Origin: a virus
IMG/VR virus record: IMGVR_UViG_3300035488_000130
Coordinates: 1 to 22,291 of that record
DNA length: 22,291 bases
Strand: one strand, 5' to 3'
How positions within the stretch are numbered: the first letter of the stretch is position 1; each line of letters opens with the position of its first letter. This document shows, piece by piece, positions 1-22,291 of this stretch. Position numbers and translations under genes: made by a program. The notes under the pieces were generated by a model. It saw only the letters and a list, made by a program, of their open reading frames with translations, was not told where the DNA came from and made no database searches.

Positions 1-267
1 CTCTACGAGGCTGCCGAGGGCGAACTTTTCAGGCTCCGGCATTCTTCGTACGCTGTGGCATCCAACGGCCTCCAGGAGCCTTCTGAGCGGCTCGTGGACG
101 CACTGCAGGCGGCCGCCAGGCCCATGAGCAACCAAGAGCTTTTGAGATCGTTGAACGTCGATGTAAGGGACATCGAGGCCATGAAGGCCTTGCTGGGCCA
201 GCTCCAGGCCCTGCGGGACATAGGCCTCCTGGAGGAAACGCCCATGGGGTGGAGATGGGTCAAATAG
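1..267 (+). CDS. 5'-partial protein with C-terminal winged-helix-like domain
   Basis: Frame +1 is open from base 1 (LYEAAEGELFRL...) to TAG at 265-267; the C-terminus (MSNQELLRSL...LQALRDIGLLEETPMGWRWV) has a helix-turn-helix plus wing pattern. Confidence 0.6.
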   Translation, partial: LYEAAEGELFRLRHSSYAVASNGLQEPSERLVDALQAAARPMSNQELLRSLNVDVRDIEAMKALLGQLQALRDIGLLEETPMGWRWVK

Positions 268-6227: not shown

Positions 6228-8024
6228 TTACAACACGTCCGCTGGCAGGCGGTGCCGCCGGACTATTCTACAGTTTGCATATACCATGCATTGAGGATGG
6301 CCGGTGCAATCCGAATGGGCTCCTTCCCACTCGCCGTATTTCCTTATGAAGACTGAAATGGTAACATCTGTGCCATACGACATGTATTCTGTAATATCGA
6401 TATCATTCACTGCCGAAAATAACTGCCAATCCGTGATCCAAAGATTTTTTCCGGTGACGGCACCCACGTAGACGATGAGCATCGCCTTTTGGGGTGTCAC
6501 CGCCTGCCCCTCTGCTTGTGTAAATGACAGGCTCAGAAGAACACGATGGTTATAGTCAGCGACTGTAAGCGCAGCCGGGAAATTGACAGTCAGACCGTAG
6601 CCACTACACGATCCATGAGCATCATCCAGCATCGTGGTTGGACCGGACCCCGATTTGGTGTCCAAGTCCTCAATATAATTCTGGGACCACGCCGAGTTGA
6701 GACGGTCGAGCGAGAGCAATGCCTCTCTAGCCCATGGTTTTCTCGCGCCGAACTCGTAGGTATCCACGAACTGACCGCCCTTGATGTCCATGTCAATTGC
6801 GTGGACTTGGACAATCTCGGGCGAATGGTCCCACACTTTTACCCAGTTTCGGGGCACGGCATAATGATCTAGGGCGGTGGTTATGTTCCTGGCTTTTGTG
6901 TTTCGGCGAACTGCATACTCTTCGTCAACAAAATGTTGCATCGTCCCATTGGCGTCAACAAAACCGTCTGTAATATCCAATGTGGAAAAAAAGTGGCGAC
7001 CCTTTTTCAGCCACAAATCTTGCTTAGTGTATTCCTGCCGGGAGGTACCGGGCGAACCTGCGCCGAGGCCAACGACGGCTGTAACCTCCATATCGTCGCC
7101 ATAGGATATTTCTCGTTCAAGGATATCCGAATTTTTGATATCGAACAGTCCATAAGTCTGGCCTTTCCCATTGTTTGAAAGTACATCTAGATATGTGTAC
7201 TCTGATTCGTATCTCCAAACGGGGTATCTACCATGCCCAATCGCAAACGTAAGTAGCGTTTCGCCGATCAGCTTCTCAGTATCGACGATGAAGTCTCCTG
7301 ATAACTCGATCTCCGGATGATCGATCGAGCCCGCCCTGATGTTCGTGTCGAACGCATTTTCTACGTAGATACGAGCATAATAATCTTCTACAAAACCATC
7401 AGACAGATGGATCCAGAGTTTGTTGTCCTCATAAAAATATGAGCTCTGGTTGGACACGAGCGCGACTTTGCTGGTCCGCTCAGTCAGAGCCGTGCCATTG
7501 GCATAAACGGGTTTGTCATAGAGACAGCTCCTGGTTCCGCCCTCGTCTAAATACCATATGTGGTCCCCGAGATTGAGAGGATCTTCGACCCATGCCCTTG
7601 GGGGAATAAGCGAATTTGCTGCCCACAACAGGCCTTCATTATTGGCAACTCCGTATGTGTCAGGCGTGCCCGATGGCACGTCGTCCGAAAAGGGATGGAT
7701 GAAACAATGGTCGGCATGCTTGTAAATGAGATTTGGACATACTCGCCAGTTGAGCATATCCTCCTCTCCTTGCAGGGATATCTTCCATTTGCCTTCGATC
7801 CTATTTTCGACCAGCCTGTTAACATATCCTCGAAAAACGCATCCTCCCGCGCGATTGATCGTCAGTCCTGCGCCCATCCTAACCGGACATTCGCTGGGGA
7901 CTTCCAAGACGGCACTGCTGGGGGTGACCGGATCTATGACCCGCGAAACTCGTCCGGACACTATCGGTACCGGGTCCCACGTATCTGAGCCGGGATTCTG
8001 GATTTTGGCGGTTGCGTCGGCCAT
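6228..8024 (-). CDS. Baseplate hub/Tal-like tail tip protein; 598 aa
   Basis: Start at ATG 8024 via TGATG overlap with tape measure; hub-type motifs TINRAGGCVFRGYV...ISLQGEEDMLNWR and EVTAVVGLGAG. Confidence 0.7.
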   Translation of the reverse strand: MADATAKIQNPGSDTWDPVPIVSGRVSRVIDPVTPSSAVLEVPSECPVRMGAGLTINRAGGCVFRGYVNRLVENRIEGKWKISLQGEEDMLNWRVCPNLIYKHADHCFIHPFSDDVPSGTPDTYGVANNEGLLWAANSLIPPRAWVEDPLNLGDHIWYLDEGGTRSCLYDKPVYANGTALTERTSKVALVSNQSSYFYEDNKLWIHLSDGFVEDYYARIYVENAFDTNIRAGSIDHPEIELSGDFIVDTEKLIGETLLTFAIGHGRYPVWRYESEYTYLDVLSNNGKGQTYGLFDIKNSDILEREISYGDDMEVTAVVGLGAGSPGTSRQEYTKQDLWLKKGRHFFSTLDITDGFVDANGTMQHFVDEEYAVRRNTKARNITTALDHYAVPRNWVKVWDHSPEIVQVHAIDMDIKGGQFVDTYEFGARKPWAREALLSLDRLNSAWSQNYIEDLDTKSGSGPTTMLDDAHGSCSGYGLTVNFPAALTVADYNHRVLLSLSFTQAEGQAVTPQKAMLIVYVGAVTGKNLWITDWQLFSAVNDIDITEYMSYGTDVTISVFIRKYGEWEGAHSDCTGHPQCMVYANCRIVRRHRLPADVL

Positions 8025-11000
8025 CAGTAATGCCCCCCGAACCTGGCCTGTCTCAGTATCCTGACCAACTCGTCCCTCTCTTCCTTCCACTCTCTTTTTA
8101 GCTGTTCCATCATCTCCCGTATCTGAGGCCGGGCGACGTCACCGTAAACCGACAGGTTGATATCGCCCCGACTGACCAGCGACCCGTCGCTGTGCGTTGC
8201 GTATTGATTCGAAGCTTCACCATTTATGATCGTCTGCCCCAGCGTGCTGGATACCGCGCCGGATCCAGACACCGATTGGCTTTGGACTATGCCCCCCTGG
8301 GCGAAGGTCGCTACTCCCAGTTCCTGCATTACCCTGGGGAGTATCCGGAGGCCTGCAGCTCTGTCAGAGATAGGCACAAAGGCCTCCCGACCAGCTTCGC
8401 CGAAAACGCCGAACACTGGATGATCAGTTATGCCGCCTTCCGCCCACTGGATGGCCCCGGACCCGCCTACTGCTCGAGCTCCGGCATTCATCCAGGCAGC
8501 AGTTGAAGAGCCTGACGCCGGACCGGGGCTGGCGGCAATCCAACCACCACCGCCGGATATGGAAGTTCCGCCCCAGTATGCGGCGCCTCCCCGGTTGGCT
8601 AGGCCCAGGATACTAGATCCTCCATATCCGCCGTACCCTCCATAGCCTGAACTGGCCATGACCAGGCCGTCAGCTACCCTCTGAGTCTGAATTAGGTTCT
8701 GTCTGGTGTTCTCGACTACCTTTTCCGTTGCCGTGGCGGTGTCCCTGGTGGATTCGGCCACAGAATCCCAGGTCGAAATCTCTTGATCCCCGAGGCTCGT
8801 ATAGCCTCCGCCCATGTTGCCCAATCCCTTACCACCCGGCAGGTAATCTACGCCAGGAGTAAAATTGAGGCTCGGGTCGGGCTCAACGAAAGCTATACAG
8901 GTGCCGTTGTTGTCGTATATGGCATTCCAGGCAGTCCTCCTAGTGAGGGCGTCGCTTGTGTTGATGCCGCCGGGCATAACCAGAGCATCAGAAGGCGCGG
9001 TAATCGCAGATGTGACCGGAGTCGAGCTTTTGCCTGAAAGCCAACCGCCTGGCGTGGTGGCGGCTACACCCCCTCCATAGAATGAGCTGCTTCCGCCGTA
9101 ATACGATCCAAGCGGCAGATCGAGGTTGCCCCACCGCTTGCCTCCGGGCATATAGTCAGCTCCGGGGGTGAAGTTCAGGCTTGGATCAGGCTCTACAAAG
9201 GCGATGCATGTACCATCATTGTCATAGATCGCGTTCCACACGTCGCGGTTGGTGAGTGCTTGCGCTACCTTCGGAGTCTTCAGGACGTTCTCCTCAGTCA
9301 GTCCCATAGCCACCAACTGAGCCGCCCGGATCTCTCCGCTGATCCATTCATTCCCGGTAGTCTGAGGATCGGACAGCCACGATACGGGCATGTCGCCGGT
9401 GGTGAGCACTGGTGGAGCATTCGGGAAAGAGCCCCGCTTATAGGATTCGCTTCTGATCTCGTATGGATAGTCTTCGAAATATCGCCCACTGGTTAGATAG
9501 CTCATTGAACCCTTGTCGACATTTGCCGATTGTGGGTAGAGGCCCTTGATATCTTCCTCGGGGATCACGATCTCGGGACCGGCTTCTCCGATCCAGGCCA
9601 GGCCGCCCTGAGTGACTTTGCCGCCTTCGGCCAGCTTGGGTATATTGAGCTTGCCTGGAAACTGAGATATTTTATAGCTGGTATCGGTTTTTGCTGCGGT
9701 CAGACCGGCAGGAACATTCAGCTTGCGGGCGGAGCTGTTCACCTGGGAAACAGTCTGCTTCCAGCTTGCCATGCCCGTCGTAGCTCGGGCCTCCGAAAGT
9801 AGCGACATGAGCCTGCCGTTCACGGCTTCCATAGTCGAGGCCACATCCAGGAACTTGCCCCCCAGCGTTTCTGCTGAATCGCCCGCGGTCATCATCTTTT
9901 GGGCGATGGAAGTTCCGGCTTCGCCCAATTGGGTGAACCACTTTTGGTTTGCTAGGTCAGGATCATAATCCAGCAGAGTTTCGTATATTGGAACCAGGCT
10001 CGATACGTCATTGCTTTCAAGCGCAGAATCGAACTCCTCCAGCCAGCGCAAGATGGATTGAGAGCGTTCGCTACCTTCTTCGGCCAGCTTCTGCTCATAC
10101 TTGTACCGCTCTTCCTGCTCTGTGCTGGTCGGGATCTGGCCGGTGGCGGCGTAGATCTGCTCATAGACGGCGGCGTTGCTCTTTTTCCAGAGGGCGAAGT
10201 TAGCCACGAACTCATCAACTTCCGGCTTTACGTCCACGGAGAAAGCCCGCCCGTCGAGCGTGGCCTGGATATCTGATGCGAGCTTGTCTAATCCGGATGC
10301 AGCGAACTCAACCTTATACTCTTTCTCAAGATCTTTTAGAGTCTCAAGATACCCTTCCAGAAGAGGCTTTTCGGACAGCGGAGTAACAACACCATCTTCA
10401 ACAATGTCTTCCAGAACACCGCTCATCTCGGACGATACCGATTTGAGATATTTCGGCATATCGAGTATGACCGGCTTGACCATCTCCTCCATCTCGCGTT
10501 CTGCCTCAGCGGAATCTGAATAGCCGTATTTGGCACCAAACGCTAAGCGCTTGATCTCTTCGCCTGCTTCATCCAGCAGAGCCAGGTATCCAGAAGATTG
10601 GCCGGTGGTTTTGACCATCTTCTGCATAGAGTAGGTTTCGGGGAAGGTGGTCAGTGTCCGGTTCCAAGACTCCTTGTATTTCTTTTCAAAGTCGTCGTTC
10701 CCCCCTATGATCTTGCCATTAACGACGGACATCCCGCCCGGATGAGACTTTATATAGGCATCCTGGGCAGCCGAGAACTCTTCGGCCACTTTCTCTGCTA
10801 TACCAGACGTCAGGTTATCGGCCACCGCATCAGACGCGCTCGCGGCCCCTTGTTTTGCCCCTGCGGCTATCTCTTCAGCCGTTTTTTTGCGGATGCCCGA
10901 CAGAGAGACGTTATACCATTCGCCATTGAGGGCGAAATCCCCGACATTGCCCTGAGACAGGTTCTCCATCATCCCCTGGCCCGCCTTCCATATCTCGGAA

Positions 11001-12400
11001 CCAGCTACGTTCATGCCCTGCCAGGAATCGGCAATAGCGTTGGCTATGTCGGTCACTATGGGCAGTATGACCCCACCAAGCTGCTCAAAGCTCACTTGGG
11101 CGGCCTGACCAATACGGGCAAAAGCGGTGTTTGCATCGTCCGCGACTTTCTCAAAGCCTTCGGTGATGTTGGATGGGTCCAATTCTATTGCTTTGTTCAA
11201 CTTACCGACACCGCTTTTGATGTCGGCTATCATCTTGTCCATAGCCCCGGAGCCTTCTATGCCGAGGAGCTTGATCATGTCGGGCCGGTCGCCCTCGGGC
11301 ATGGCGGCCAGCTCTTCGGCGATGGCCTGGAAAGTTCCAACAAAATCAGTTTTTAGGGATTCTTGGAACTGGGCATTGTCCATTCCAATGATCTGAGCCA
11401 GTTCAGCGCCATGCTGTTTTGCGCCTTTTGCCATCCTCTCGATCTGAGTTCCTGCTTCGCCAGCGCTCGCTCCGGTGTCGATCAGAAATGATGTGAGGGC
11501 TAGCCACTTGCCATAAGTATCTTCTGTTGGGGCAAAGGACGCGACCGCGCTGGATGCGTTCCTCATGGCGGTAACTATCTCCTCTTCGGAAGAGCCCATC
11601 GTGTTGGCCAGAGAGTCCACCTTGCCGCCTACTGATTCGGCATAATCAGACCATGAAAGCTCCTGTTCACCCATCGCCCGGCGCTGGGCATTCCATGCTC
11701 CTATGGTCACCGATCCCATTTTGCCTATGCCCGCGCTGGTAGCTTCGGCTGACATCCCCCAGGCACCTTGAAGCATGGCGGTGGATCGTGCGAAATCAAG
11801 CAGCTCTTTCTTATATCCTTGGACGTCGCCAACGTCGAGTTTGGCTTGGCCCACGCCAATAGATCCTGCCTGCTCTATCAGCCCGGCAGCGGCCTCTCGT
11901 GTGATCCCCATCTCCATCCGGAGATCCTGCAGGGAGTCCATGAGGTCAGTAAGGTTCTTCCCATCCAGCCCGGTGGTCCGCCCTATGGATGTGGCCATGC
12001 TCTCCCAGGCCGCGGCGGCTTGGACAGACTTAGCTGCCAGGAGGCCCACGCCAGCCGCCGCTACTCCAGCAGCCAGGCCGATCGGGCCAATGGCCATCGC
12101 AATATCCGATGCCGCCCCGCCTATAGGCCCCAGGCCGGCCATGAAAGATGTAGCATACTGGCCGCCAGCCTGCCGTCCTATCCCTCCAAAATCTACCCCA
12201 GAGAACAGCTTGCTCATCCGGCCTTTGGTGGCATAAGAAGCGGAAGCATCCATCTGGTTGAAAAAACCAGACATGTCCACTTGTGGGGCAATCTTGGGGG
12301 CCTTGAGCGAGTTTAGCTGCTGCTGGAGGTTCTTTAGGCCTTGCTCGATCTGCGAGCCGTTATAAGTTCCTGAAATTTCGAATGCTGCTATAAAGATCAC
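8024..12400 (-). CDS. Tail tape measure protein; 1458 aa
   Basis: Long Ala/Gly-rich helical protein with a TP901-like core (AAAWESMATSIGRTTGL...); AEGG...GEAGPE motifs near the C-terminus; follows the tail chaperones; GTG start in a GTGA overlap. Confidence 0.93.
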   Translation of the reverse strand: MIFIAAFEISGTYNGSQIEQGLKNLQQQLNSLKAPKIAPQVDMSGFFNQMDASASYATKGRMSKLFSGVDFGGIGRQAGGQYATSFMAGLGPIGGAASDIAMAIGPIGLAAGVAAAGVGLLAAKSVQAAAAWESMATSIGRTTGLDGKNLTDLMDSLQDLRMEMGITREAAAGLIEQAGSIGVGQAKLDVGDVQGYKKELLDFARSTAMLQGAWGMSAEATSAGIGKMGSVTIGAWNAQRRAMGEQELSWSDYAESVGGKVDSLANTMGSSEEEIVTAMRNASSAVASFAPTEDTYGKWLALTSFLIDTGASAGEAGTQIERMAKGAKQHGAELAQIIGMDNAQFQESLKTDFVGTFQAIAEELAAMPEGDRPDMIKLLGIEGSGAMDKMIADIKSGVGKLNKAIELDPSNITEGFEKVADDANTAFARIGQAAQVSFEQLGGVILPIVTDIANAIADSWQGMNVAGSEIWKAGQGMMENLSQGNVGDFALNGEWYNVSLSGIRKKTAEEIAAGAKQGAASASDAVADNLTSGIAEKVAEEFSAAQDAYIKSHPGGMSVVNGKIIGGNDDFEKKYKESWNRTLTTFPETYSMQKMVKTTGQSSGYLALLDEAGEEIKRLAFGAKYGYSDSAEAEREMEEMVKPVILDMPKYLKSVSSEMSGVLEDIVEDGVVTPLSEKPLLEGYLETLKDLEKEYKVEFAASGLDKLASDIQATLDGRAFSVDVKPEVDEFVANFALWKKSNAAVYEQIYAATGQIPTSTEQEERYKYEQKLAEEGSERSQSILRWLEEFDSALESNDVSSLVPIYETLLDYDPDLANQKWFTQLGEAGTSIAQKMMTAGDSAETLGGKFLDVASTMEAVNGRLMSLLSEARATTGMASWKQTVSQVNSSARKLNVPAGLTAAKTDTSYKISQFPGKLNIPKLAEGGKVTQGGLAWIGEAGPEIVIPEEDIKGLYPQSANVDKGSMSYLTSGRYFEDYPYEIRSESYKRGSFPNAPPVLTTGDMPVSWLSDPQTTGNEWISGEIRAAQLVAMGLTEENVLKTPKVAQALTNRDVWNAIYDNDGTCIAFVEPDPSLNFTPGADYMPGGKRWGNLDLPLGSYYGGSSSFYGGGVAATTPGGWLSGKSSTPVTSAITAPSDALVMPGGINTSDALTRRTAWNAIYDNNGTCIAFVEPDPSLNFTPGVDYLPGGKGLGNMGGGYTSLGDQEISTWDSVAESTRDTATATEKVVENTRQNLIQTQRVADGLVMASSGYGGYGGYGGSSILGLANRGGAAYWGGTSISGGGGWIAASPGPASGSSTAAWMNAGARAVGGSGAIQWAEGGITDHPVFGVFGEAGREAFVPISDRAAGLRILPRVMQELGVATFAQGGIVQSQSVSGSGAVSSTLGQTIINGEASNQYATHSDGSLVSRGDINLSVYGDVARPQIREMMEQLKREWKEERDELVRILRQARFGGHY
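8813..9259 (-). repeat. Two 138-nt (46-codon) paralogous segments within tape measure: 9122-9259 and 8813-8950
   Basis: ALTNRDVWNAIYDNDGTCIAFVEPDPSLNFTPGADYMPGGKRWGNL versus ALTRRTAWNAIYDNNGTCIAFVEPDPSLNFTPGVDYLPGGKGLGNM. Confidence 0.95.
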
Positions 12401-15509: not shown

Positions 15510-15929
15510 TTATTCCACCGCCTTAAAATCTATCGTGAGGATCTCGATCCACTGAAGGAGATCGTCGCTTGTGTCTGAATACAGGCTCCATCCCACCAGG
15601 CCGAAGGACAATTGCCCCCCGCTCCAGGGCAATGAGAATAGAGCTCTGATATGAGCTTTCACTGCCTCGATGAGGGCTTTCGCGGCGTCTTCGGATGATG
15701 CAGATATCGCCCGAACCTCGAGCTGGCCTGAGACGCGGTCGTTATCACCGCCAATATACGGAACTCCCCGAGACGGCAGATCAGCAACCATCAAGCAGGC
15801 GTACGGCGAATTGCTCACCATCTCATCCTGGAGTGAAAAGTTCCTGCCGGAGATAACACCAGTAATGAGCGGCCCTATGGTGTCCGAGTTCTGGAGGGAG
15901 GCAGCCAATGCTGAGGAGAGAGTAGACAT
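15510..15929 (-). CDS. Tail terminator-like protein (gp17/gpU-like); 139 aa
   Basis: Position between the gp10-like gene and the tail tube; PYACLMV, GQLEVRAIS...AAKALIEAVK and terminal LTIDF pattern. Confidence 0.65.
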   Translation of the reverse strand: MSTLSSALAASLQNSDTIGPLITGVISGRNFSLQDEMVSNSPYACLMVADLPSRGVPYIGGDNDRVSGQLEVRAISASSEDAAKALIEAVKAHIRALFSLPWSGGQLSFGLVGWSLYSDTSDDLLQWIEILTIDFKAVE

Positions 15930-15962
15930 AATTATTTATCCTTGAAAACTCATTATTTTGGT

Positions 15963-16265
15963 ATGCTGAAAATTCTAATAGCTATCATGCTGGTAGTGGG
16001 GGTCGGATGTGGTGACATTTGGGGTATGACCCCGGCAACACGAAACGACATGGCAATTAAGAGTGGTCTCACCAACCATGGTACATCGGATTTGCCGATG
16101 ATAGATGATCCCGATGTACTGAAAGTTTACATCGTCCGGGACGGTACAGCGCTTGCGATCGTTGCCCTCCAGAACGAGGATGGTCAGTGGGTCGTGGGAT
16201 TTACCGATATAAAGTCACAAAGCTATTATCTAGGGAATGAAACTGGGGCAGTAAAAATAACCTAG
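15963..16265 (+). CDS. Small secreted or membrane-anchored protein, antisense to the late operon (moron-like); 100 aa
   Basis: MLKILIAIMLVVGVGCG signal-like N-terminus; TTTATC at 15935-15940, about 25 nt before the ATG (leaderless promoter spacing); fills the gap between two minus-strand genes. Confidence 0.65.
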   Translation: MLKILIAIMLVVGVGCGDIWGMTPATRNDMAIKSGLTNHGTSDLPMIDDPDVLKVYIVRDGTALAIVALQNEDGQWVVGFTDIKSQSYYLGNETGAVKIT

Positions 16266-16630
16266 CCCTCATACACCCTATCGATACATTCCCGCGCCTT
16301 CGCCTGCATGATGGCCGATCCGGGCCGGATGAAAGGCCGAAATCGCCACACTCTTTTTCCAGATTTGGGTCCAAATTCCTGATGCGACGTGTAATCGGCA
16401 TCTGACCCCAGCGTCATCTCATATATGCAGGGAGCAAGCCGTTTCACGCCGCTTGCTCTCTCTATGCCGTCGTCCATGAAGTTGGTGTCCTTCAGGGAGA
16501 GAGCATGGGCCACGTTCTTGCCTTCGATTAGCATCTGTTCGGCGACTTGCTTGCTGAGACCGTCCTGGCGGGCGATCTCCCTGGCGATCTCAGCCCGGAG
16601 CTTGGAGGTATCTATTTTCAGGTCAATCAT
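16262..16630 (-). CDS. HK97 gp10-like tail completion protein (copy 2); 122 aa
   Basis: DADYTSHQEFG...RPFIRPG motif. Confidence 0.75.
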   Translation of the reverse strand: MIDLKIDTSKLRAEIAREIARQDGLSKQVAEQMLIEGKNVAHALSLKDTNFMDDGIERASGVKRLAPCIYEMTLGSDADYTSHQEFGPKSGKRVWRFRPFIRPGSAIMQAKARECIDRVYEG

Positions 16631-17384
16631 ATAGTTCTCCTAGTTGGGCATCAGATAGGCCTACAAAAGACTCTTTAGACTTCTTCCCAAACCCGTATTC
16701 AAGATGGCAACGGCAGTTGATATCATGTTCCCCAGGGTATTGCTCACCGTCTGAGAAGGCTTCATCTATGCCCACAACTTCGCCGTTGAGCTTCTGGTGA
16801 GCGGGCCTAACCCGGCCATCTCCGACCGTCACCCATTCTTTGGTCTGCGATCCTGCCCTTTTGGCGAACTCAAGAGAGCTGCCCCAGGTCATGCGGTGCC
16901 GTTCTGTCCGGATGATCCGCCGCGCCCTGAATCCCGAATTGTCCACGATAGATGAAAGGTTAGGCTGTTTCAGGATTGCTCTGGCAAGAGGCCGCTCGTT
17001 CATCCCGGAATTGGAGAATATGAAGTTGGTTAGGAGCTTCTTGTCTGTAGATGTCATGAGCTTGATCGCGGTTCCTACGCGCGGGCGAAAGTACTTTTCC
17101 GCTATGTCGCCCACGTTCCAGACTTCGGTCAGGCCATAGGCGCTCGCGAACTCCGCGCTTGATAGCTCCATCTCCTTGAGCAGCGTGCCCTCCAGGAACT
17201 CCCAGACGGCCTTGTTCTTAGCTTTCGATGCCAATACATACTTTCGCATCGGGCCTGGCTGGATGAGGTCCATAGGCTTGTAGGGGCCGTCCACGTCGAA
17301 GAATTCCACCGATTCCAGGTAGGCTTTGATCTCGGGCCCGAACTTCTTCAGGATGTCTTGGATGACATGTTCTGGGAGAGTCAT
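16623..17384 (-). CDS. Phage Mu F / SPP1 gp7-like minor head protein; 253 aa
   Basis: RARRIIRTE, KEWVTVGDGRVRPAHQKLNG and HDINCRC are diagnostic motifs. Confidence 0.88.
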   Translation of the reverse strand: MTLPEHVIQDILKKFGPEIKAYLESVEFFDVDGPYKPMDLIQPGPMRKYVLASKAKNKAVWEFLEGTLLKEMELSSAEFASAYGLTEVWNVGDIAEKYFRPRVGTAIKLMTSTDKKLLTNFIFSNSGMNERPLARAILKQPNLSSIVDNSGFRARRIIRTERHRMTWGSSLEFAKRAGSQTKEWVTVGDGRVRPAHQKLNGEVVGIDEAFSDGEQYPGEHDINCRCHLEYGFGKKSKESFVGLSDAQLGELYD

Positions 17385-17785
17385 GCTACCAGGTAAGTGT
17401 AAAATTCGCTCGATCCATCCAGACCGGGATTGTCCTCAACCTTCAGGATCGTGTAATCGGTGCCGTTGAGCCTGATCTTGTCGCCCACTGCCATGACTGC
17501 CGTGCAATAGACCGCATCCCTCGTGGACGTCCACACTCCAGCGGCATTGAACTCCCGGAGAGAGTACTCATCAAGTACGATCCTGCTTATGGCCTGGTTC
17601 TTCGCCCCAGAGGCCTGCAGGACTTGGCGGTAGACTCGGCCACCGGGATTGAGGCCTATCTGGGCTATCATCTCCCTCTTGGTAGAATCTCTCGGAAGGT
17701 CGAAATAGCCAGCCTGGTCGAGGAGGCGGACGATTTCGGGCGCCCAGTCCCTGAGAAGCTGCAGGATCTCTTCGTCCGGGGTCAT
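17381..17785 (-). CDS. Putative head-closure (stopper)-like protein with an extra N-terminal helix; 134 aa
   Basis: C-terminal VGDKIRLNGTDYTILKVEDNPG pattern of gp16/gpFII-like proteins; ATGA overlaps on both sides. Confidence 0.55.
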   Translation of the reverse strand: MTPDEEILQLLRDWAPEIVRLLDQAGYFDLPRDSTKREMIAQIGLNPGGRVYRQVLQASGAKNQAISRIVLDEYSLREFNAAGVWTSTRDAVYCTAVMAVGDKIRLNGTDYTILKVEDNPGLDGSSEFYTYLVA

Positions 17786-18333
17786 TTCAAGAACAGCCGC
17801 CTGAATATTTCGGTTCCAGTCGGGCCGACAAAACAGCTTATCTGGCCTATGATGTAATCGATACCATCAAACCGGAACATACCACCGATACTGCAATTGC
17901 TATCTGTCGTATCGGCTATGGCCTGGCTCAGAGTCCATGCGCCGGATGCGTCCACGAAAGCCTTTTGGGAGTTCATGAACCGGCATCTAATGGCCGTTGC
18001 CGTCTCTTTTAGGATTGGAGCTCCACCCGAATTCAGAGCCTCAACCAGCACATTACAATCCAGGCCGGTACAGGCGATCACCGGGAGAGCTGATAGGCTC
18101 GTGGTGGTGGTCTTCTTCCCGACTGCCGTGAAGGTCAGCGTCTCAGAGCCTACTGTAATCGATCCGGCGCAATCGGTGTGGCCTGTGGCTACGGATACGG
18201 TCACAGCGCACCGGAAGGGCACGGACGGCAGGCCATCTCCATTCAATGTGCCCACGCCAGATGATAGACCGTTGTAGATCCTCCAGTTGGCCCGATCTAC
18301 CCGGGAAGCGTCCTGGCGGATGCCTATGACCAT
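17782..18333 (-). CDS. Head-closure (stopper)-like protein with an inserted beta-rich domain; 183 aa
   Basis: IRCRF...DASGAWTLSQA...IGGMFRFDGIDYIIGQI...GPTG; follows the adaptor. Confidence 0.6.
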   Translation of the reverse strand: MVIGIRQDASRVDRANWRIYNGLSSGVGTLNGDGLPSVPFRCAVTVSVATGHTDCAGSITVGSETLTFTAVGKKTTTTSLSALPVIACTGLDCNVLVEALNSGGAPILKETATAIRCRFMNSQKAFVDASGAWTLSQAIADTTDSNCSIGGMFRFDGIDYIIGQISCFVGPTGTEIFRRLFLK

Positions 18334-18854
18334 GTTGCCTCGATCGCCCCGGATATGTAGCCTTTCAGGAAATCGAATGCATCTGAGCTCAATAAGCCCT
18401 TGTGCTTTGCTTTTCCGGAAGAACCAAACGTCTCTGAATAGCCGCCCCCGAGAGTGTAGCTCTTAACCCCCTGGTTTTGGAGGGTCTCGCGTTCCTGGCC
18501 TTCAGTATCCGCATGATGCAGGTATATTGCCAGGGACTCCTCACAGCAGGCATCGAGCACTTCCTGTGGCACTTCGGGCAGCAGCGTATTGACGTTCCAG
18601 CCGTAGCACATCCCGTCTATCCAGCGAGGAAACTGACGATCCTGCTGCAGGCCCATGATCGGAGAGACGGTCACAAAATCATAATATGTCCGCCCCTTGA
18701 GCGGCAGATTATCGATTATTTTTGTAGCCCTCTGTAGGTACCAGGCCAGAGAGGAGAGGGCGAGGAAAGCGGTAGCCCTGGGGTCACCGGCGAAGTATGC
18801 CCGCGCCTCTTCTTCCGTGGCTATATAGCTGCCGGATACTGGTGTTTCTGTCAT
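18324..18854 (-). CDS. Head-tail adaptor (DnaT-like/gp15-like), copy 2; 176 aa
   Basis: SYIATEEEARAYF, QRATKIID, QFPR, VPQEVLDACCEES and GVKSYTLG motifs. Confidence 0.75.
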   Translation of the reverse strand: MTETPVSGSYIATEEEARAYFAGDPRATAFLALSSLAWYLQRATKIIDNLPLKGRTYYDFVTVSPIMGLQQDRQFPRWIDGMCYGWNVNTLLPEVPQEVLDACCEESLAIYLHHADTEGQERETLQNQGVKSYTLGGGYSETFGSSGKAKHKGLLSSDAFDFLKGYISGAIEATWS

Positions 18855-18991
18855 GTGTTACCCCAGTCGTTCTTTTCTCTTTCGTCCATGAAGGAAACTA
18901 TGACATCCGGGTAGCCCTGCGATTCGTCTATCCTGATCTCTCCGACCCATCCTTGCTCGTCCATCAGGTCAAAAATTTTGAGCCTCATCAT
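18851..18991 (-). CDS. Small hypothetical protein, 46 aa
   Basis: ATGA overlaps at both ends (18988-18991 and 18851-18854). Confidence 0.55.
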   Translation of the reverse strand: MMRLKIFDLMDEQGWVGEIRIDESQGYPDVIVSFMDEREKNDWGNT

Positions 18992-19305
18992 TTCCCCACA
19001 AAATGAAGATATGCCATGACAATAGCGAACGATGCGAACATAGTTACCGGCTGGTTCACAATCCGCCATATGGCGGTTAAGGTCGTTACTTTCGCGTCGC
19101 TCTTGATACTACAATATCGTAGATTGCTCACCTGTTCCTGGATGGCTATTAGGCGTTCTTTAATTTCTGGTAGAGTTGATGCATATATCTTCAGGGTAGA
19201 GACTTCGCTCCATATCTGGCTGATATCCGATTCATGCCGCTTGCTGTCTGATTCTAGCACGCATACTCGGGCGTGTAAGACCGCAGGATCGCAATCGTCG
19301 GCCAT
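18988..19305 (-). CDS. Coiled-coil protein with a C-terminal transmembrane helix (XhlA-like architecture); 105 aa
   Basis: Heptad-like region followed by VTMFASFAIVMAYLHF; adjacent to the holin-like gene. Confidence 0.65.
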   Translation of the reverse strand: MADDCDPAVLHARVCVLESDSKRHESDISQIWSEVSTLKIYASTLPEIKERLIAIQEQVSNLRYCSIKSDAKVTTLTAIWRIVNQPVTMFASFAIVMAYLHFVGK

Positions 19306-19311
19306 CCAGCC

Positions 19312-19506
19312 TCATTTTGGGAGAATGCTCTGGATCTTCTCAGAAGTCCACAATACCCGCACCATCGCCATAACGGCGATTCCCGTGGCAAATATCTGTT
19401 CAGGTGTGAGAGGAAAATCGATGCCTGTAGACTTTCCGAGAAGTACCAATGCATAGCTTATGATGGCGATAGCCACCTCTTTAGATCCAATTACGCTTTC
19501 TGCCAT
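19312..19506 (-). CDS. Holin-like two-TM membrane protein; 64 aa
   Basis: Two hydrophobic segments (VAIAIISYALVLLG; IFATGIAVMAMVRVLW) and a charged C-terminus; GGTGA upstream. Confidence 0.6.
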   Translation of the reverse strand: MAESVIGSKEVAIAIISYALVLLGKSTGIDFPLTPEQIFATGIAVMAMVRVLWTSEKIQSILPK

Positions 19507-19968
19507 TTATATCACCTTTCCAAGCTTTTTATATTTGTTTGAATCCAGGGACCGGACGCCGCCGCCCATGCCCTTCCACCAGAGTCGCATCATGAGGACC
19601 AGGGCTATGGGATCTGTCCCGTACTGCTCCTCCCATTCGGCCACTGTCATGAGCTGCTTTGGGCTGGCCGGGGAAGCGACCAGTATCCCTCTTCCGCCGT
19701 GCGCCTCCTGCAGGAAGTCGATCGTGAGCTGGTCCTTCACGAAGCCTATGATCTTTTCATCAGCGATTTTGCCGCTATATGGGACTTCTTTAGGGCCATC
19801 CTCGGTATCGACGATCAGCGATTTTATCAGGTCGCTGAAGCCTATGAAGGGGCTGGCAAACCTAATCTGGCTTGGCTTTGCGTTTACCTCATCAGGAAAA
19901 CAGCATATGCCATCCACCATCAGGTAGTCTTCCTCGGTTTCAATTTCATCTTCTGGCAAAATAATCAC
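19507..19968 (-). CDS. Hypothetical protein with an acidic N-terminus; 153 aa
   Basis: GTG start in a GTGA overlap; stop abuts the next ATG. Confidence 0.7.
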   Translation of the reverse strand: MIILPEDEIETEEDYLMVDGICCFPDEVNAKPSQIRFASPFIGFSDLIKSLIVDTEDGPKEVPYSGKIADEKIIGFVKDQLTIDFLQEAHGGRGILVASPASPKQLMTVAEWEEQYGTDPIALVLMMRLWWKGMGGGVRSLDSNKYKKLGKVI

Positions 19969-20258
19969 CTATCTATCGTTTGGAATGCCATAGGCGCGTA
20001 GCTGCCGTTCCAACTCCCAATGGCGCTTTGGCTTACATATGATAACCAGGATGAGCCGGGCACGATCACTGGGGCCGTCCGGTATACATTGTACCCGGTC
20101 TGAAGCCTTCCAATATCCGGATGGTCCCAGGAGTCCTTGATTGTGATCTTGGATTCCTCCACCACATTCTGGATGTGGATGGACTTCTCCCGGACAATGT
20201 CAACAGGCAAATCCTGGGCAAAAATGGGGATGCAGATGAGCAGCAGTGCGCTGATCAC
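19965..20258 (-). CDS. Small secreted protein, 97 aa; start re-called at GTG 20258
   Basis: GTGA overlap with the previous stop; signal-like MISALLLICIPIFA-Q. Confidence 0.6.
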   Translation of the reverse strand: MISALLLICIPIFAQDLPVDIVREKSIHIQNVVEESKITIKDSWDHPDIGRLQTGYNVYRTAPVIVPGSSWLSYVSQSAIGSWNGSYAPMAFQTIDR

Positions 20259-20977
20259 ATGCAGGGAAGCCAATCTACGCTGATAGCGCCGCATGTGGAG
20301 TTACCCCAGAGCTGGATGAACTTCTCAACTGCGAAGACGCCGGTCATATCGTCCACAGATCGGCCGTATTCAGCATGGCGGCCCTTGAGCAGCTTGTTGG
20401 GCTCGGGATCCCTGGAAAGCCAGCCTATGTGAGCTACGCCAATGACGTTGCTGTTCAGGTTAGCCTCAAGGACGCCGGTGCAACAGTTTTCGACACAAGA
20501 ATCGTCATAGCCCCGGGTCTTGATCTCGGTGGTCTTCTGCAGGTGTTCCGCATGGCTGTACATCTCGGTCAGCACAGCACCGATTCTGTAATTCTGCACG
20601 CACAGCTTGTCCACCCACTTTGCGTCATACTGGCCAGTCTGATAGGATATGGGCATGTACTCGAACTCAGCTTCCTTGGTGTAGTTGATGTAGTCCATGG
20701 CGCAGGTGTTCGGAAACTCGCAGGCCATCTTCGAGCCGGAACCGTTGAGCTGCCGCTCAGCCTCCAGCTCCGTCCTCAGCAGGACCACGTTGCCGGACCC
20801 GGCCACGTGCTCTACCAGCTTCTGGCCGCTGAAGCCCACCTGGGTCTGGACAATCTTCTCCTGCTCCAGGTAGCCTACGCCCTTTATCGAATTCTTTTCA
20901 TACATGTAGTTGGCAGCCTGGGCCTGGCTTAGCCAGACGATGGCCACCAATACCAAAAATGCAATTATCTTTCTCAT
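20255..20977 (-). CDS. Secreted Cys-rich beta-type protein resembling a Methanothrix host family; 240 aa
   Basis: AAGGAGGT before ATG 20977; signal peptide MRKIIAFLVLVAIVWLSQAQA; 8 Cys; strongly G/C-ending codons. Confidence 0.8.
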   Translation of the reverse strand: MRKIIAFLVLVAIVWLSQAQAANYMYEKNSIKGVGYLEQEKIVQTQVGFSGQKLVEHVAGSGNVVLLRTELEAERQLNGSGSKMACEFPNTCAMDYINYTKEAEFEYMPISYQTGQYDAKWVDKLCVQNYRIGAVLTEMYSHAEHLQKTTEIKTRGYDDSCVENCCTGVLEANLNSNVIGVAHIGWLSRDPEPNKLLKGRHAEYGRSVDDMTGVFAVEKFIQLWGNSTCGAISVDWLPCM

Positions 20978-20982
20978 AAAAT

Positions 20983-21075
20983 ACCTCCTTAATTTTTTTA
21001 AACTATTATTAAGAAGAGGTGGTTTCCCCGTAAGAAGGGAGCTGAAGCCCAAGACCGGGAAAACTATTATTTTTT
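20983..21075 (-). promoter_or_regulatory. AT-rich upstream region with SD, 11-bp direct repeats and a predicted stem
   Basis: AAACTATTATT at 21000-21010 and 21061-21071; arms 21022-21030 and 21056-21064 are complementary; GGAGGT SD. Confidence 0.45.
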
Positions 21076-21095
21076 CTGATAATGATTTTCCGTAT

Positions 21096-21440
21096 CTAAC
21101 CCCAGATCGCTTTCAGAGCCGCTGCTATATCCTGGTGGTATTGGTCCTCGGCTTCCAGGAGCGGGCCTCTAAGATAGTTGGGGCCCGTCCCCGCGTGGCT
21201 GGGAGTATAATTCTGGCTCTCGTGCATGACCAGCGCATAAGGTGTGTTGAAACTGATTTCGGCTCCCCTCTCCAGCACGGTGACCGTGGCAGAATTGCGG
21301 AGCGTTCCCTCTTCTAAAGGTGCTCTATTGACAGCTTCTCCTTTGACTGTCTCTGCGGTCATAATTGCCACCTCTTTGGCTGCTTGTTTGGCCGCTGCTA
21401 TCAGTCGTTCGCCATGCCACACAATAGTTGGGATCGCCAT
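21096..21440 (-). CDS. HK97 gp10-like/minor capsid-type tail completion protein (copy 1); 114 aa
   Basis: APLEEGTLRNS...FNTPYALVMHE...NYLRGP motif; GAGGTGA SD. Confidence 0.8.
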   Translation of the reverse strand: MAIPTIVWHGERLIAAAKQAAKEVAIMTAETVKGEAVNRAPLEEGTLRNSATVTVLERGAEISFNTPYALVMHESQNYTPSHAGTGPNYLRGPLLEAEDQYHQDIAAALKAIWG

Positions 21441-21449
21441 TCACCTCTA

Positions 21450-21764
21450 TTATGCCTGATTTTTGGACATATTCACGACTCGTAAGGACATTCCCAGATA
21501 GCCGTTCGTTGTGGCCACGTCGAGAACCGGCCAGGTAAAGCTACTTCGGGTGAGTGCGTCTCCTTCGGCTACTGTGGCATCCTTCGTCAGGCAAAAAGCA
21601 TCACAGATCACATCTTCTCGGCCTTCATGGTGGATGGTTCGCTTCTGATCAAACCAGATGACAGTGATTGAAGAATCTGAGTAAGTCGGCTCGTTGTATT
21701 CATTTGCGCCGGTCTTGTGCTTCAGGGTCACCGTCTCGCCCAGGCCAGGAGGTAAGAGGCTCAT
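21450..21764 (-). CDS. Head-closure (stopper) protein, copy 1; 104 aa; start re-called at ATG 21764
   Basis: ATGA overlap with the adaptor; ETVTLKHKTGANEYNEPTY...VAEGDALT...WPVLDV is a gp16-like pattern. Confidence 0.75.
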   Translation of the reverse strand: MSLLPPGLGETVTLKHKTGANEYNEPTYSDSSITVIWFDQKRTIHHEGREDVICDAFCLTKDATVAEGDALTRSSFTWPVLDVATTNGYLGMSLRVVNMSKNQA

Positions 21765-22291
21765 TTCAGTTCGGACCCCAAGTATCGCCGCAACAATCGC
21801 CGTGATGTGGCGCTCAGGAGAGAAGCCGACCCGACCCCGGCCGTGAATGTGTAGGAGAGTTTTCCACCAATAGACATGCTGGTAACTCCGTTCTCCTGTA
21901 GTGTCTTCAGGCCGCCATCGGTGCCTGCCGCGCATATGGCTATGGCTTCCTCCATGCAGGCCCGTTTCACGATCACGGGTACTGTGGGTAGCTGGGTGCC
22001 ATGGTCATAGTCGCAGATTTCGCCATCGATGATCCTGGGAAACTCCAGGACCTGGGCTAGGCCGTCACTGTTGGAGTCTTTCTGTATGCCGTTCTCGATG
22101 TACGGCTCTTCATATCTACGGCCCCTGAGAGGGAGCTGGTCGATGTGCTCCGTGGCCTGCTGGCAGTACCATTCTTGGTCAGTGGCAGAAGCGTTTTTCA
22201 GCTCGATGGCCGAGGCTCTCTTGTCGACGCCGATCAGGCTTTCAAGCTCGGCATCGGTGGCTATATAAGATTTGAGGAAAGAGACGTCGAC
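21761..22291 (-). CDS. Head-tail adaptor (DnaT-like), copy 1; 5'-partial
   Basis: Frame is open from the window edge (VDVSFLKSYIATDAEL...QQATEHIDQLPLRGR...EFPRIIDG...VPVIVKRACMEEA...GVTSMSIGG); the ORF track shows only the last 71 aa. Confidence 0.8.
   Translation of the reverse strand, partial: VDVSFLKSYIATDAELESLIGVDKRASAIELKNASATDQEWYCQQATEHIDQLPLRGRRYEEPYIENGIQKDSNSDGLAQVLEFPRIIDGEICDYDHGTQLPTVPVIVKRACMEEAIAICAAGTDGGLKTLQENGVTSMSIGGKLSYTFTAGVGSASLLSATSRRLLRRYLGSELK

What the first reader, a model, noticed from the sequence alone, without database searches (positions are those of the whole stretch)
20255..20977. Virus carries a host-type secreted Cys-rich beta protein: candidate sheath (MspA-like) protein homolog
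Seen: a classical signal peptide, a strong SD, its own AT-rich upstream region, and markedly G/C-ending codons unlike the neighbouring 19-20 kb genes. The mature chain of alternating-pattern strands is punctuated by Gly turns (GVGY, GSG, GVAHIG, GVF), with 8 Cys and three N-x-S/T sequons. From memory, the sequence resembles a multi-copy secreted family of Methanothrix; I could not verify this. Established: Methanothrix filaments are enclosed in a proteinaceous amyloid-like sheath whose major subunit is MspA. Inference: if homologous, the virus encodes its own envelope subunit, which could remodel the sheath to exclude competitors, extend lysogen filaments, or weaken the sheath for exit together with the adjacent holin-like cassette. 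This would be the most novel system in the window.
Basis: partly seen in the sequence, partly recalled or inferred. Interest (0 to 1): 0.78.

Follow-up and report, generated by a model that had tools for sequence, protein, structure and literature searches.

The report
Methanothrix virus carries host sheath-subunit gene

Summary
The ORF is real: window 20255-20977 (-), 240 aa. It has a signal peptide, an AAGGAGG ribosome-binding site, a 34% GC upstream region, the highest GC3 in the window (0.75), 8 Cys and 3 sequons.

It belongs to a multi-copy family found in all 76 Methanotrichaceae genomes searched. It is 79% identical to tandem M. soehngenii copies and 69% identical to Mthe_0668 (ABK14458.1) of M. 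thermoacetophila.

It is not related to MspA (Mthe_1069): BLASTP E 0.42, and hhalign matches the signal peptide only.

Medvedeva, Borrel and Gribaldo (ISME J 2024, PMC11576556) call Mthe_0668 the most transcribed SH "sheath protein". They report SH-like genes in 75% of Methanothrix viruses and propose the sheath-weakening egress model. Their Table S7 lists a 22,291-bp, 39.52%-complete Methanothrix record with the value 0.970833. That equals the 233 positives over 240 residues I get for this protein against their marker vir375_00035.

So the sheath-subunit reading holds and the MspA link does not. Novelty: already known.

Added here:
- Viral copies are compatible with one clade and are under purifying selection (dN/dS 0.07-0.15).
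- The gene leads a virus-only module with two unknown proteins, p98 and p153.

No experiment yet shows this family in the Methanothrix sheath.

The parts
20255..20977 (-). SH-like (sheath-subunit family) gene, 240 aa. Ortholog group of Mthe_0668 and of the published viral marker vir375_00035.
   Evidence: Identity is 79% to M. soehngenii copies, 69% to ABK14458.1 and 89% to P0284 (= vir375_00035 as printed in PMC11576556 Data 1).
20915..20977 (-). Sec-type signal peptide (residues 1-21), with the predicted cut after AQA.
   Evidence: Hydrophobic window 3-23. The conserved mature N-terminus ANYMYEK appears in all copies.
20978..21095 (-). AT-rich upstream spacer with an AAGGAGG ribosome-binding site and TATA-like TTTAAAAAAA / TTAATAATA stretches.
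   Evidence: 34% GC. The proximal ~40 nt are conserved among viral copies (window, L005, L007) and differ from the host genes' upstream regions. Promoter function is inferred.
19965..20261 (-). p98: small protein with an N-terminal signal peptide or membrane anchor. Its GTG start overlaps the SH stop by 4 nt (ATGTGA), which suggests translational coupling.
   Evidence: The 97-101-aa frame and the GTG start are conserved directly after the SH gene in the close viral loci (TTG or ATG starts in the distant ones). It is absent from the host loci fetched. No Pfam or PHROG match.
19507..19968 (-). p153: conserved cytoplasmic-type protein of unknown fold, third gene of the virus-only module.
   Evidence: One strong hydrophobic segment (4-29), a weaker second one, and a charged C-terminus. 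No family match. Found only in the closest relatives L097 and L115. The role is inferred.
18988..19305 (-). p105: predicted coiled-coil protein with a C-terminal membrane anchor.
   Evidence: Hydrophobic segment 86-104. Only a weak DUF7491 coiled-coil hit, E 0.068. The role is unknown.

Best explanation
The gene is a virus-borne copy of the Methanothrix SH (sheath-forming) subunit family, in the same ortholog group as Mthe_0668, the most transcribed gene of M. thermoacetophila.

Shown:
- Family membership.
- A secretion signal.
- The core cysteines and two N-glycosylation sequons are kept.
- Purifying selection acts within a viral lineage.
- The position is conserved, at the head of a virus-only module (SH, p98, p153) inside the virion-gene block of a temperate tailed virus.

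Inferred:
- The product is exported by Sec.
- It is glycosylated and disulfide-bonded like host subunits.
- It joins the growing beta-sheet rings of the host sheath next to host subunits.
- Its few virus-specific substitutions, or its untimely dose, make hoops that are weaker or mis-assembled, which lets virions leave a sheath that otherwise survives cell lysis.

This is the model proposed by Medvedeva et al. 2024.
For: Family:
- 2089 homologs.
- 79% identity to tandem M. soehngenii copies.
- 69% identity to P0299 = ABK14458.1.
- That protein is Mthe_0668 by gene order Mthe_0665-0675 and by the paper's own table.

Abundance of the host protein:
- 104-265 times the median RPKM, at the level of mcr and cdh genes (PMC10470525 Table S3).
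- It tops the transcript list in PMC11576556.

Fold:
- Six long beta segments, each with a conserved Gly or Pro near the middle.
- This fits six beta-arches, but I could not inspect the coordinates.

Constraint:
- C86, C126, C165, C166, C229 and C239 are conserved in 91-100% of the viral copies and 99-100% of the host copies.
- The sequon at N98 is invariant. The one at N226 is kept in 86-100% of copies.
- dN/dS is 0.07-0.15 between viral copies.

Viral lineage:
- The window's copy sits in an all-viral clade of 11 (SH-aLRT 99).
- Holding all 22 viral copies as one clade is not rejected (AU p 0.63).
- dS against the host is about 0.8, so this is not a fresh capture.

Context:
- Virion genes lie on both sides and an integrase is present.
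- The same gene order occurs in other viral contigs.
- The upstream region is the virus's own, not the host's.

Published: SH-like genes occur in 13/16 Methanotrichales (pro)viruses and 75% of Methanothrix vOTUs, and AF2 models of virus-host SH contacts are reported (PMC11576556).
Against: - No experiment places Mthe_0668-type proteins in the Methanothrix sheath. The only MS/MS study of purified sheaths reported Mthe_1069 (as cited).
- The link to the experimentally validated M. hungatei SH protein rests on predicted structures in the 2024 paper. I could not reproduce it. No PDB or Atlas match was convincing. Profile comparison with the second Methanothrix SH type (Mthe_0667 family) found nothing (probability 1.4%).
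- A protein this close to the host's, under strong purifying selection, looks more like a working subunit than a poison.
- The virus is temperate and the gene has its own promoter-like region, which would also suit expression from the prophage.
- No lytic enzyme was recognised in the neighbouring genes.
Confidence: 0.55

Rival explanations
1. Lysogenic conversion. The prophage expresses a working sheath subunit as a moron. It is built into the lysogen's sheath and changes its surface, for example by masking or altering the receptor. That would exclude superinfecting viruses or episymbionts, or simply add to sheath supply. It would not serve exit.
For: - An integrase is in the window (PHROG 1, 3e-35).
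- The gene has its own AT-rich upstream region and a strong ribosome-binding site, distinct from the operon around it.
- GC3 is host-like or higher (0.75 against 0.70 for the host genes).
- All core Cys and two sequons are kept, and dN/dS is 0.07-0.19.
- Virus-specific changes at host-invariant positions are few and mild: S59A, I65V, F99Y, T116Q, Q119A, E209D.
Against: - The gene sits inside the late virion-gene block.
- It is coupled to two virus-only genes that are conserved with it.
- It lies next to small membrane proteins.
- The same kind of gene is reported in viruses classed as extrachromosomal as well as in proviruses.
Confidence: 0.2
2. The family is an abundant envelope protein but not the sheath ring subunit. 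It could belong to the spacer plug, the inner wall, or be a hoop linker. The viral copy would then tamper with that layer instead.
For: - MS/MS of purified M. thermophila sheaths reported Mthe_1069, not Mthe_0668 (as cited).
- Plug and assembly proteins are still unidentified.
- Many conserved cysteines would suit a cross-linker.
- My fold searches gave no link to any solved sheath or amyloid structure.
- No profile similarity to the Mthe_0667 type.
Against: - Expression is at or above MspA level.
- The family is present in all 76 Methanotrichaceae genomes searched, whereas Mthe_1069 homologs occur in only a few strains.
- The paper reports Foldseek and HMM links from Mhun_2271 to this family and AF2 ring models of Mthe_0668 with Mthe_0667.
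- Amyloid-like subunits resist the digestion needed for MS, which could explain their absence from the older data (inference).
Confidence: 0.15
3. The gene is host DNA on a mis-assembled or mis-called viral contig, or a functionless passenger.
For: Its GC3 stands out from its neighbours. IMG/VR holds some host fragments.
Against: - It is flanked on both sides by connector and tail genes.
- The same gene order occurs in independent contigs from other samples, including distant ones (L005, L007, L111, L113).
- The viral copies cluster apart from host copies.
- dN/dS is 0.07-0.15 between viral copies.
Confidence: 0.03
4. It is a homolog of MspA (Mthe_1069).
For: Only generic traits are shared: both are secreted, beta-rich and highly expressed in Methanothrix.
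Against: - BLASTP E 0.42 against Mthe_1069 and 0.32 against Mthe_1070.
- hhalign probability 2.5%, over the signal peptide only.
- 24 kDa mature size against 60.9 kDa.
- 8 Cys against 3.
Confidence: 0.01

Closest known systems
vir375_00035, the SH-like protein of Methanothrix provirus vir375 (Medvedeva et al. 2024, ISME J 18:wrae225, Supplementary Data 1 and Table S7)
   Same: - 214/241 identical and 233 positives.
- Same length class, signal peptide, cysteines and C-terminus.
- The paper used it as the marker that picked up a 22,291-bp Methanothrix IMG/VR record, with the value 0.970833 = 233/240.
   Different: - The signal peptide differs, as do about 15 mature-chain residues.
- The window is a 40% genome fragment, not the 36.8-kb provirus.
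Mthe_0668 (ABK14458.1) of M. thermoacetophila PT and the tandem copies in M. soehngenii (for example WP_013718915.1)
   Same: - 69% and 79% identity over the full length.
- All hallmark motifs are shared: ANYMYEK, GVGY, EFEYMPxSYQTG, AEHLQK, NSNVIGVAHIGW, DWLPC.
- The conserved Cys and sequons are shared.
   Different: - The viral copy is virus-encoded and has a different upstream region.
- It lacks the host's neighbours, which are the Mthe_0667 and Mthe_0666 types and, in M. soehngenii, AglB.
- It is followed instead by the virus-only p98 and p153.
- It carries lineage-specific changes at six host-invariant positions.
SH sheath protein of Methanospirillum hungatei (Mhun_2271, also published as 'MspA' in PMC6242892; cryoET model in PMC10593813)
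   Same: - Secreted, beta-rich subunit.
- Six beta-arch-like segments, with cysteines proposed to link rings.
- The 2024 paper derives the Methanothrix family from it by Foldseek and HMM searches.
   Different: - No helical cap domain in my model.
- 8 Cys against 2.
- No sequence similarity was detectable by my searches.
- I could not superpose the models, so the fold identity is taken from the paper and was not tested here.
MspA of Methanothrix thermoacetophila (Mthe_1069)
   Same: Same organism group, secreted, highly expressed, and reported from purified sheaths.
   Different: Unrelated sequence. It is 2.4 times longer, is found in only a few strains, and is now regarded by Medvedeva et al. 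as a secondary or misidentified component.

Membership tests
SH (sheath-forming) proteins sensu Medvedeva et al. 2024 | N-terminal signal peptide for export | tested here: met
   Hydrophobic segment 3-23 with an AQA|A cut site. The conserved mature N-terminus appears in all copies.
SH (sheath-forming) proteins sensu Medvedeva et al. 2024 | Length of 150-350 aa for forms without Ig-like domains (viral forms 159-288 aa) | tested here: met
   240 aa. The criterion is quoted.
SH (sheath-forming) proteins sensu Medvedeva et al. 2024 | Clear sequence homology to a protein that the authors list as SH | tested here: met
   69% identity, E 6e-114, to ABK14458.1 = Mthe_0668, labelled 'Sheath protein'. 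89% identity to vir375_00035.
SH (sheath-forming) proteins sensu Medvedeva et al. 2024 | Core of two beta-sheets, each of six antiparallel strands joined by beta-arches | tested here: inconclusive
SH (sheath-forming) proteins sensu Medvedeva et al. 2024 | Relationship to the experimentally validated M. hungatei SH protein (Mhun_2271) | not tested
The link is the paper's (Foldseek plus HMM).
SH (sheath-forming) proteins sensu Medvedeva et al. 2024 | Physical presence in the sheath, with amyloid-like properties | not testable with these tools
   This needs proteomics, cryoET, or ThT/FTIR assays.
MspA (Mthe_1069) family of Methanothrix thermoacetophila | Sequence similarity to Mthe_1069 or Mthe_1070 | tested here: not met
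   BLASTP E 0.42 and 0.32. hhalign probability 2.5%, over the signal peptide only. The identity of P0272 as Mthe_1069 was confirmed.
MspA (Mthe_1069) family of Methanothrix thermoacetophila | Size of about 60 kDa | tested here: not met
   The mature chain has 219 aa, against 553 aa for mature Mthe_1069.
Holin / lysis cassette (the neighbouring genes) | A small protein with one to three transmembrane segments and a charged C-terminus, next to a lytic enzyme | tested here: inconclusive
   p64 has one strong and one weak hydrophobic segment. p98 and p105 each have one. None matches Pfam or PHROGs. No enzyme was recognised in p153.

The most novel reading that the evidence does not exclude
The SH gene may not act alone. 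It could be the first gene of a dedicated, virus-only three-gene sheath-remodelling module: SH, then the translationally coupled secreted p98, then p153. In that reading p98 is a new kind of co-factor, for example an edge-capping or ring-terminating partner that turns an otherwise normal subunit into a weak point. Alternatively, the module could act in lysogens to re-surface the sheath against superinfection.

Neither p98 nor p153 has any known relative, and I did not find them mentioned in the parts of the 2024 paper that I read.
Probability: 0.2. Interest if true: 0.6.

Novelty: already known. Interest (0 to 1): 0.25.

Why it matters
Methanothrix is a major source of biogenic methane and lives inside an extremely resistant protein sheath. 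How viruses get out of that tube is an open question, and a virus that makes its own sheath subunit is an attractive answer.

Medvedeva et al. 2024 already proposed that answer, with SH-like genes used as markers for 580 vOTUs. This window adds a confirmed example rather than a discovery.

What still matters:
- Which protein builds the Methanothrix sheath (SH family or MspA) is unsettled experimentally.
- The conserved p98/p153 partners and the strong purifying selection on viral copies give concrete handles for testing the competing roles: egress, lysogenic conversion or assembly hijack.

Tried and rejected
- **Pfam, PHROGs and NCBIfam on the protein:** nothing found. The only hit was a signal-peptide-level Ail_Lom hit, E 0.036.
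- **Other structure and feature look-ups:** PDB sequence profile search, 0 hits. Protein atlas by features, no usable hit.
- **Complex prediction of host SH with viral SH:** no verdict (score 0.02, controls not run). This counts neither for nor against binding.
- **hhalign comparisons.** The Mthe_0668 family against the Mthe_0667 family gave probability 1.4%. p98 against SH gave nothing.
- **p153:** AF2 model with Foldseek and VIA searches, no match.
  - Recent capture from M. soehngenii. dS is about 0.8 and the viral copies cluster together.

Full report
**What is there**

The window is an IMG/VR virus record, linear and about 40% complete. It carries an integrase (1122-2030, PHROG 1, 3e-35) and a tape-measure protein (8024-12400). 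It also has tail genes, a MuF-like head protein and two sets of connector genes. Head-tail adaptor-like proteins lie at 18324-18854 and 21761-22291, and gp10/Neck1-like proteins at 16262-16630 and 21096-21440. It is therefore the structural half of a temperate head-tailed archaeal virus.

The finding's ORF lies between the two connector sets, at 20255-20977 on the minus strand, and encodes 240 aa.
- A signal peptide (MRKIIAFLVLVAIVWLSQAQA|ANYMYEK).
- AAGGAGG 7 nt before the ATG.
- A 118-nt upstream spacer of 34% GC.
- The highest GC3 of 24 genes measured (0.75).
- Eight cysteines in the mature chain.
- Three sequons, and the Gly-containing turns.

**What family it belongs to**

A word-indexed search found 2089 homologs. 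Copies at 92-96% identity sit on virus-like contigs in the same gene order (L005, L007). Copies at 78-79% identity are chromosomal genes of Methanothrix soehngenii.

In M. soehngenii four paralogs (240, 240, 260 and 236 aa) stand in a row with two other secreted proteins of 258 and 393 aa. The oligosaccharyltransferase AglB is next to them.

An exhaustive HMMER search found only 179 clusters at 50% identity, so the family is narrow. All 76 Methanotrichaceae genomes searched (at least 85% complete) have it, with 3-25 matches each.

**The MspA test**

I walked from fpoL/M/N to the two tandem secreted genes downstream. An exact look-up confirmed the 575-aa product as 'hypothetical protein Mthe_1069', ABK14853.1, which is MspA.

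The viral protein shows no similarity to it or to Mthe_1070. BLASTP gives E 0.42 and 0.32 for single comparisons. A family profile aligns only ten signal-peptide columns, at probability 2.5%. The literal 'MspA-like' claim fails.

**What the host homolog is**

The best M. thermoacetophila match (69% identity) is ABK14458.1. Gene order identifies it as Mthe_0668. The order is DUF1646 transporter, 379 aa, 271 aa, 243 aa, NrpR, S6e, GGR, SSF symporter, IlvD, ThpR. This fits the annotations of Mthe_0665, 0672, 0673 and 0674.

In the published transcriptomes Mthe_0668 runs at 104-265 times the median RPKM, against 182-206 for MspA (PMC10470525 Table S3).

**Prior publication**

A literature search for the locus tag led to Medvedeva, Borrel and Gribaldo, ISME J 2024 (PMC11576556). 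That paper makes the following points.
- It defines SH (sheath-forming) proteins from the experimentally validated Methanospirillum hungatei protein.
- It finds them in all Methanotrichales, in clusters and many copies.
- It names Mthe_0668 and Mthe_0667 as the two most transcribed SH proteins and likely main sheath components.
- It sets aside ABK14853.1 (MspA) as probably misidentified.
- It reports SH-like genes in 13 of 16 Methanotrichales (pro)viruses and in 75% of Methanothrix vOTUs from IMG/VR.
- It notes that some are 75-94% identical to host proteins.
- It proposes that secreted viral subunits enter the sheath and weaken it for egress, and lists other possibilities.

Its Table S7 lists IMGVR_UViG_3300035488_000130. 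That record is 22,291 bp, linear and 39.52% complete, with a Methanothrix host by CRISPR spacer. It carries sheath marker vir375_00035 and the value 0.970833 in a column headed 'identity'.

The printed vir375_00035 sequence equals database protein P0284. BLASTP of the window's protein against P0284 gives 214/241 identities and 233 positives, and 233/240 = 0.970833. Length, topology, completeness and this number all agree. The window is almost certainly that record, and this protein the one scored.

**What I could and could not confirm about the fold**

The AF2 model (pLDDT 78, pTM 0.74) is nearly all-beta. It has six long beta segments: 24-44, 52-76, 94-129 (broken), 134-157, 168-189 and 203-225. 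The Cys-rich loops between them have low confidence. Each segment has a conserved Gly or Pro near its middle. That is what six beta-arches would look like in a secondary-structure string.

I could not inspect or superpose coordinates, however. No library search gave more than generic antiparallel-sheet matches. A profile comparison with the Mthe_0667 family found nothing. The unity of the 'SH' class therefore rests on the paper's structural work, not on sequence.

Membership here rests on plain orthology to proteins the authors call SH. The step from 'SH-like fold and top expression' to 'is the Methanothrix sheath' has no experimental support yet.

**Evolution and constraint (added here)**

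- In a tree of 164 copies, 19 of the 21 labelled viral copies fall in one group. That group also holds one row counted as 'host', from a 2.5-kb contig binned as Acholeplasmataceae whose protein is identical to a viral copy.
- In an IQ-TREE analysis of 70 rows the window's copy sits in an all-viral clade of 11 (SH-aLRT 99).
- Forcing all 22 viral copies into one clade gives a higher likelihood than the free quick search and is not rejected (AU p 0.63).
- dS between the viral and M. soehngenii genes is about 0.8. dN/dS is 0.07-0.15 among viral copies and 0.17-0.19 against the host.
- Six cysteines and two sequons are conserved in at least 86% of copies on both sides. Only six host-invariant positions carry a different majority residue in viruses, and all the changes are mild.
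- This points to an old viral lineage of a well-preserved subunit. It does not look like a recent capture or a decaying passenger.

**Neighbourhood (added here)**

- The next gene starts at a GTG that overlaps the SH stop (ATGTGA). It encodes a 98-aa protein with an N-terminal signal or anchor.
- A 153-aa protein follows.
- Both accompany the SH gene in nearly all viral loci of this clade, including distant ones, and in none of the host loci fetched.
- Neither has a Pfam, PHROG or fold match.
- The proximal upstream region is shared among viral copies and unlike the host genes' upstream regions.
- The order p161, gp10-like, SH, p98, p153 recurs in L111 and L113, so the duplicated connector sets are not an assembly chimera.
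- The 'holin-like cassette' is a 64-aa membrane protein and a 105-aa tail-anchored coiled-coil protein without family support.

**Verdict**

The most likely mechanism is export and co-assembly with host subunits, remodelling the sheath. Egress is the leading purpose and lysogenic conversion a serious rival. None of this is new: the class, the model and apparently this very contig are in the 2024 paper. The residual interest lies in the uncharacterised p98/p153 partners and in the unresolved question of what the Methanothrix sheath is made of.

Noticed in passing
window 19507-20261 (-); also L005-L008, L095-L103, L105-L108, L110, L111, L113-L115: Two unknown genes travel with the viral SH gene and were not seen in the host loci fetched. 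One is a 98-aa secreted or anchored protein whose GTG start overlaps the SH stop (ATGTGA). The other is a 153-aa protein with invariant GIC.F..PS and GGV motifs. Neither has a family or fold match.
   Followed up: partly
window 15510-22291; L111/L113 2757-5736: Two sets of head-tail connector genes flank the SH cassette. The order p161, gp10-like, SH, p98, p153 recurs in distant viral contigs, so the arrangement is not an assembly chimera.
   Followed up: partly
L005 215-367: A 50-aa ORF just upstream of the full SH gene encodes an SH N-terminal piece (…SNYMYEKTAVNGVGYVETQK…). It looks like a remnant of a second viral SH copy.
   Followed up: no
L002-L004 8773-17749 (M. soehngenii); L094 3773-6635 (M. 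thermoacetophila): The host SH cluster keeps the same neighbours in two species (NrpR, S6e, GGR, SSF, IlvD, ThpR, CCA enzyme). In M. soehngenii it abuts the N-glycosylation enzyme AglB. The 2024 paper states that no conserved context was found.
   Followed up: partly
P0122 (303 aa, 996-bp JGI contig): A ubiquitin-like N-terminus is fused directly to an SH core without a signal peptide. The source annotates it as 'ubiquitin'. It could be a chimera or an odd fusion.
   Followed up: no
P0134 (1442 aa, 10 matched stretches), P0206 (724 aa): These are proteins made of several SH cores in tandem. They agree with the repeated-core forms mentioned in the 2024 paper.
   Followed up: no
L015, L026, L030; P0279: Short contigs carrying SH genes are binned into Acholeplasmataceae, Methanomethylophilaceae, Methylobacillus and Methanoregula MAGs. 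L015's protein is identical to a viral copy. This is most likely mis-binning of viral or Methanothrix DNA.
   Followed up: no
L087 9522-12806 (M. thermoacetophila Mthe_1069/1070): MspA and its neighbour are Ser/Thr/Gly/Ala-rich secreted proteins with no family match in NCBIfam. Published sources disagree on whether MspA or the SH family builds the sheath.
   Followed up: partly
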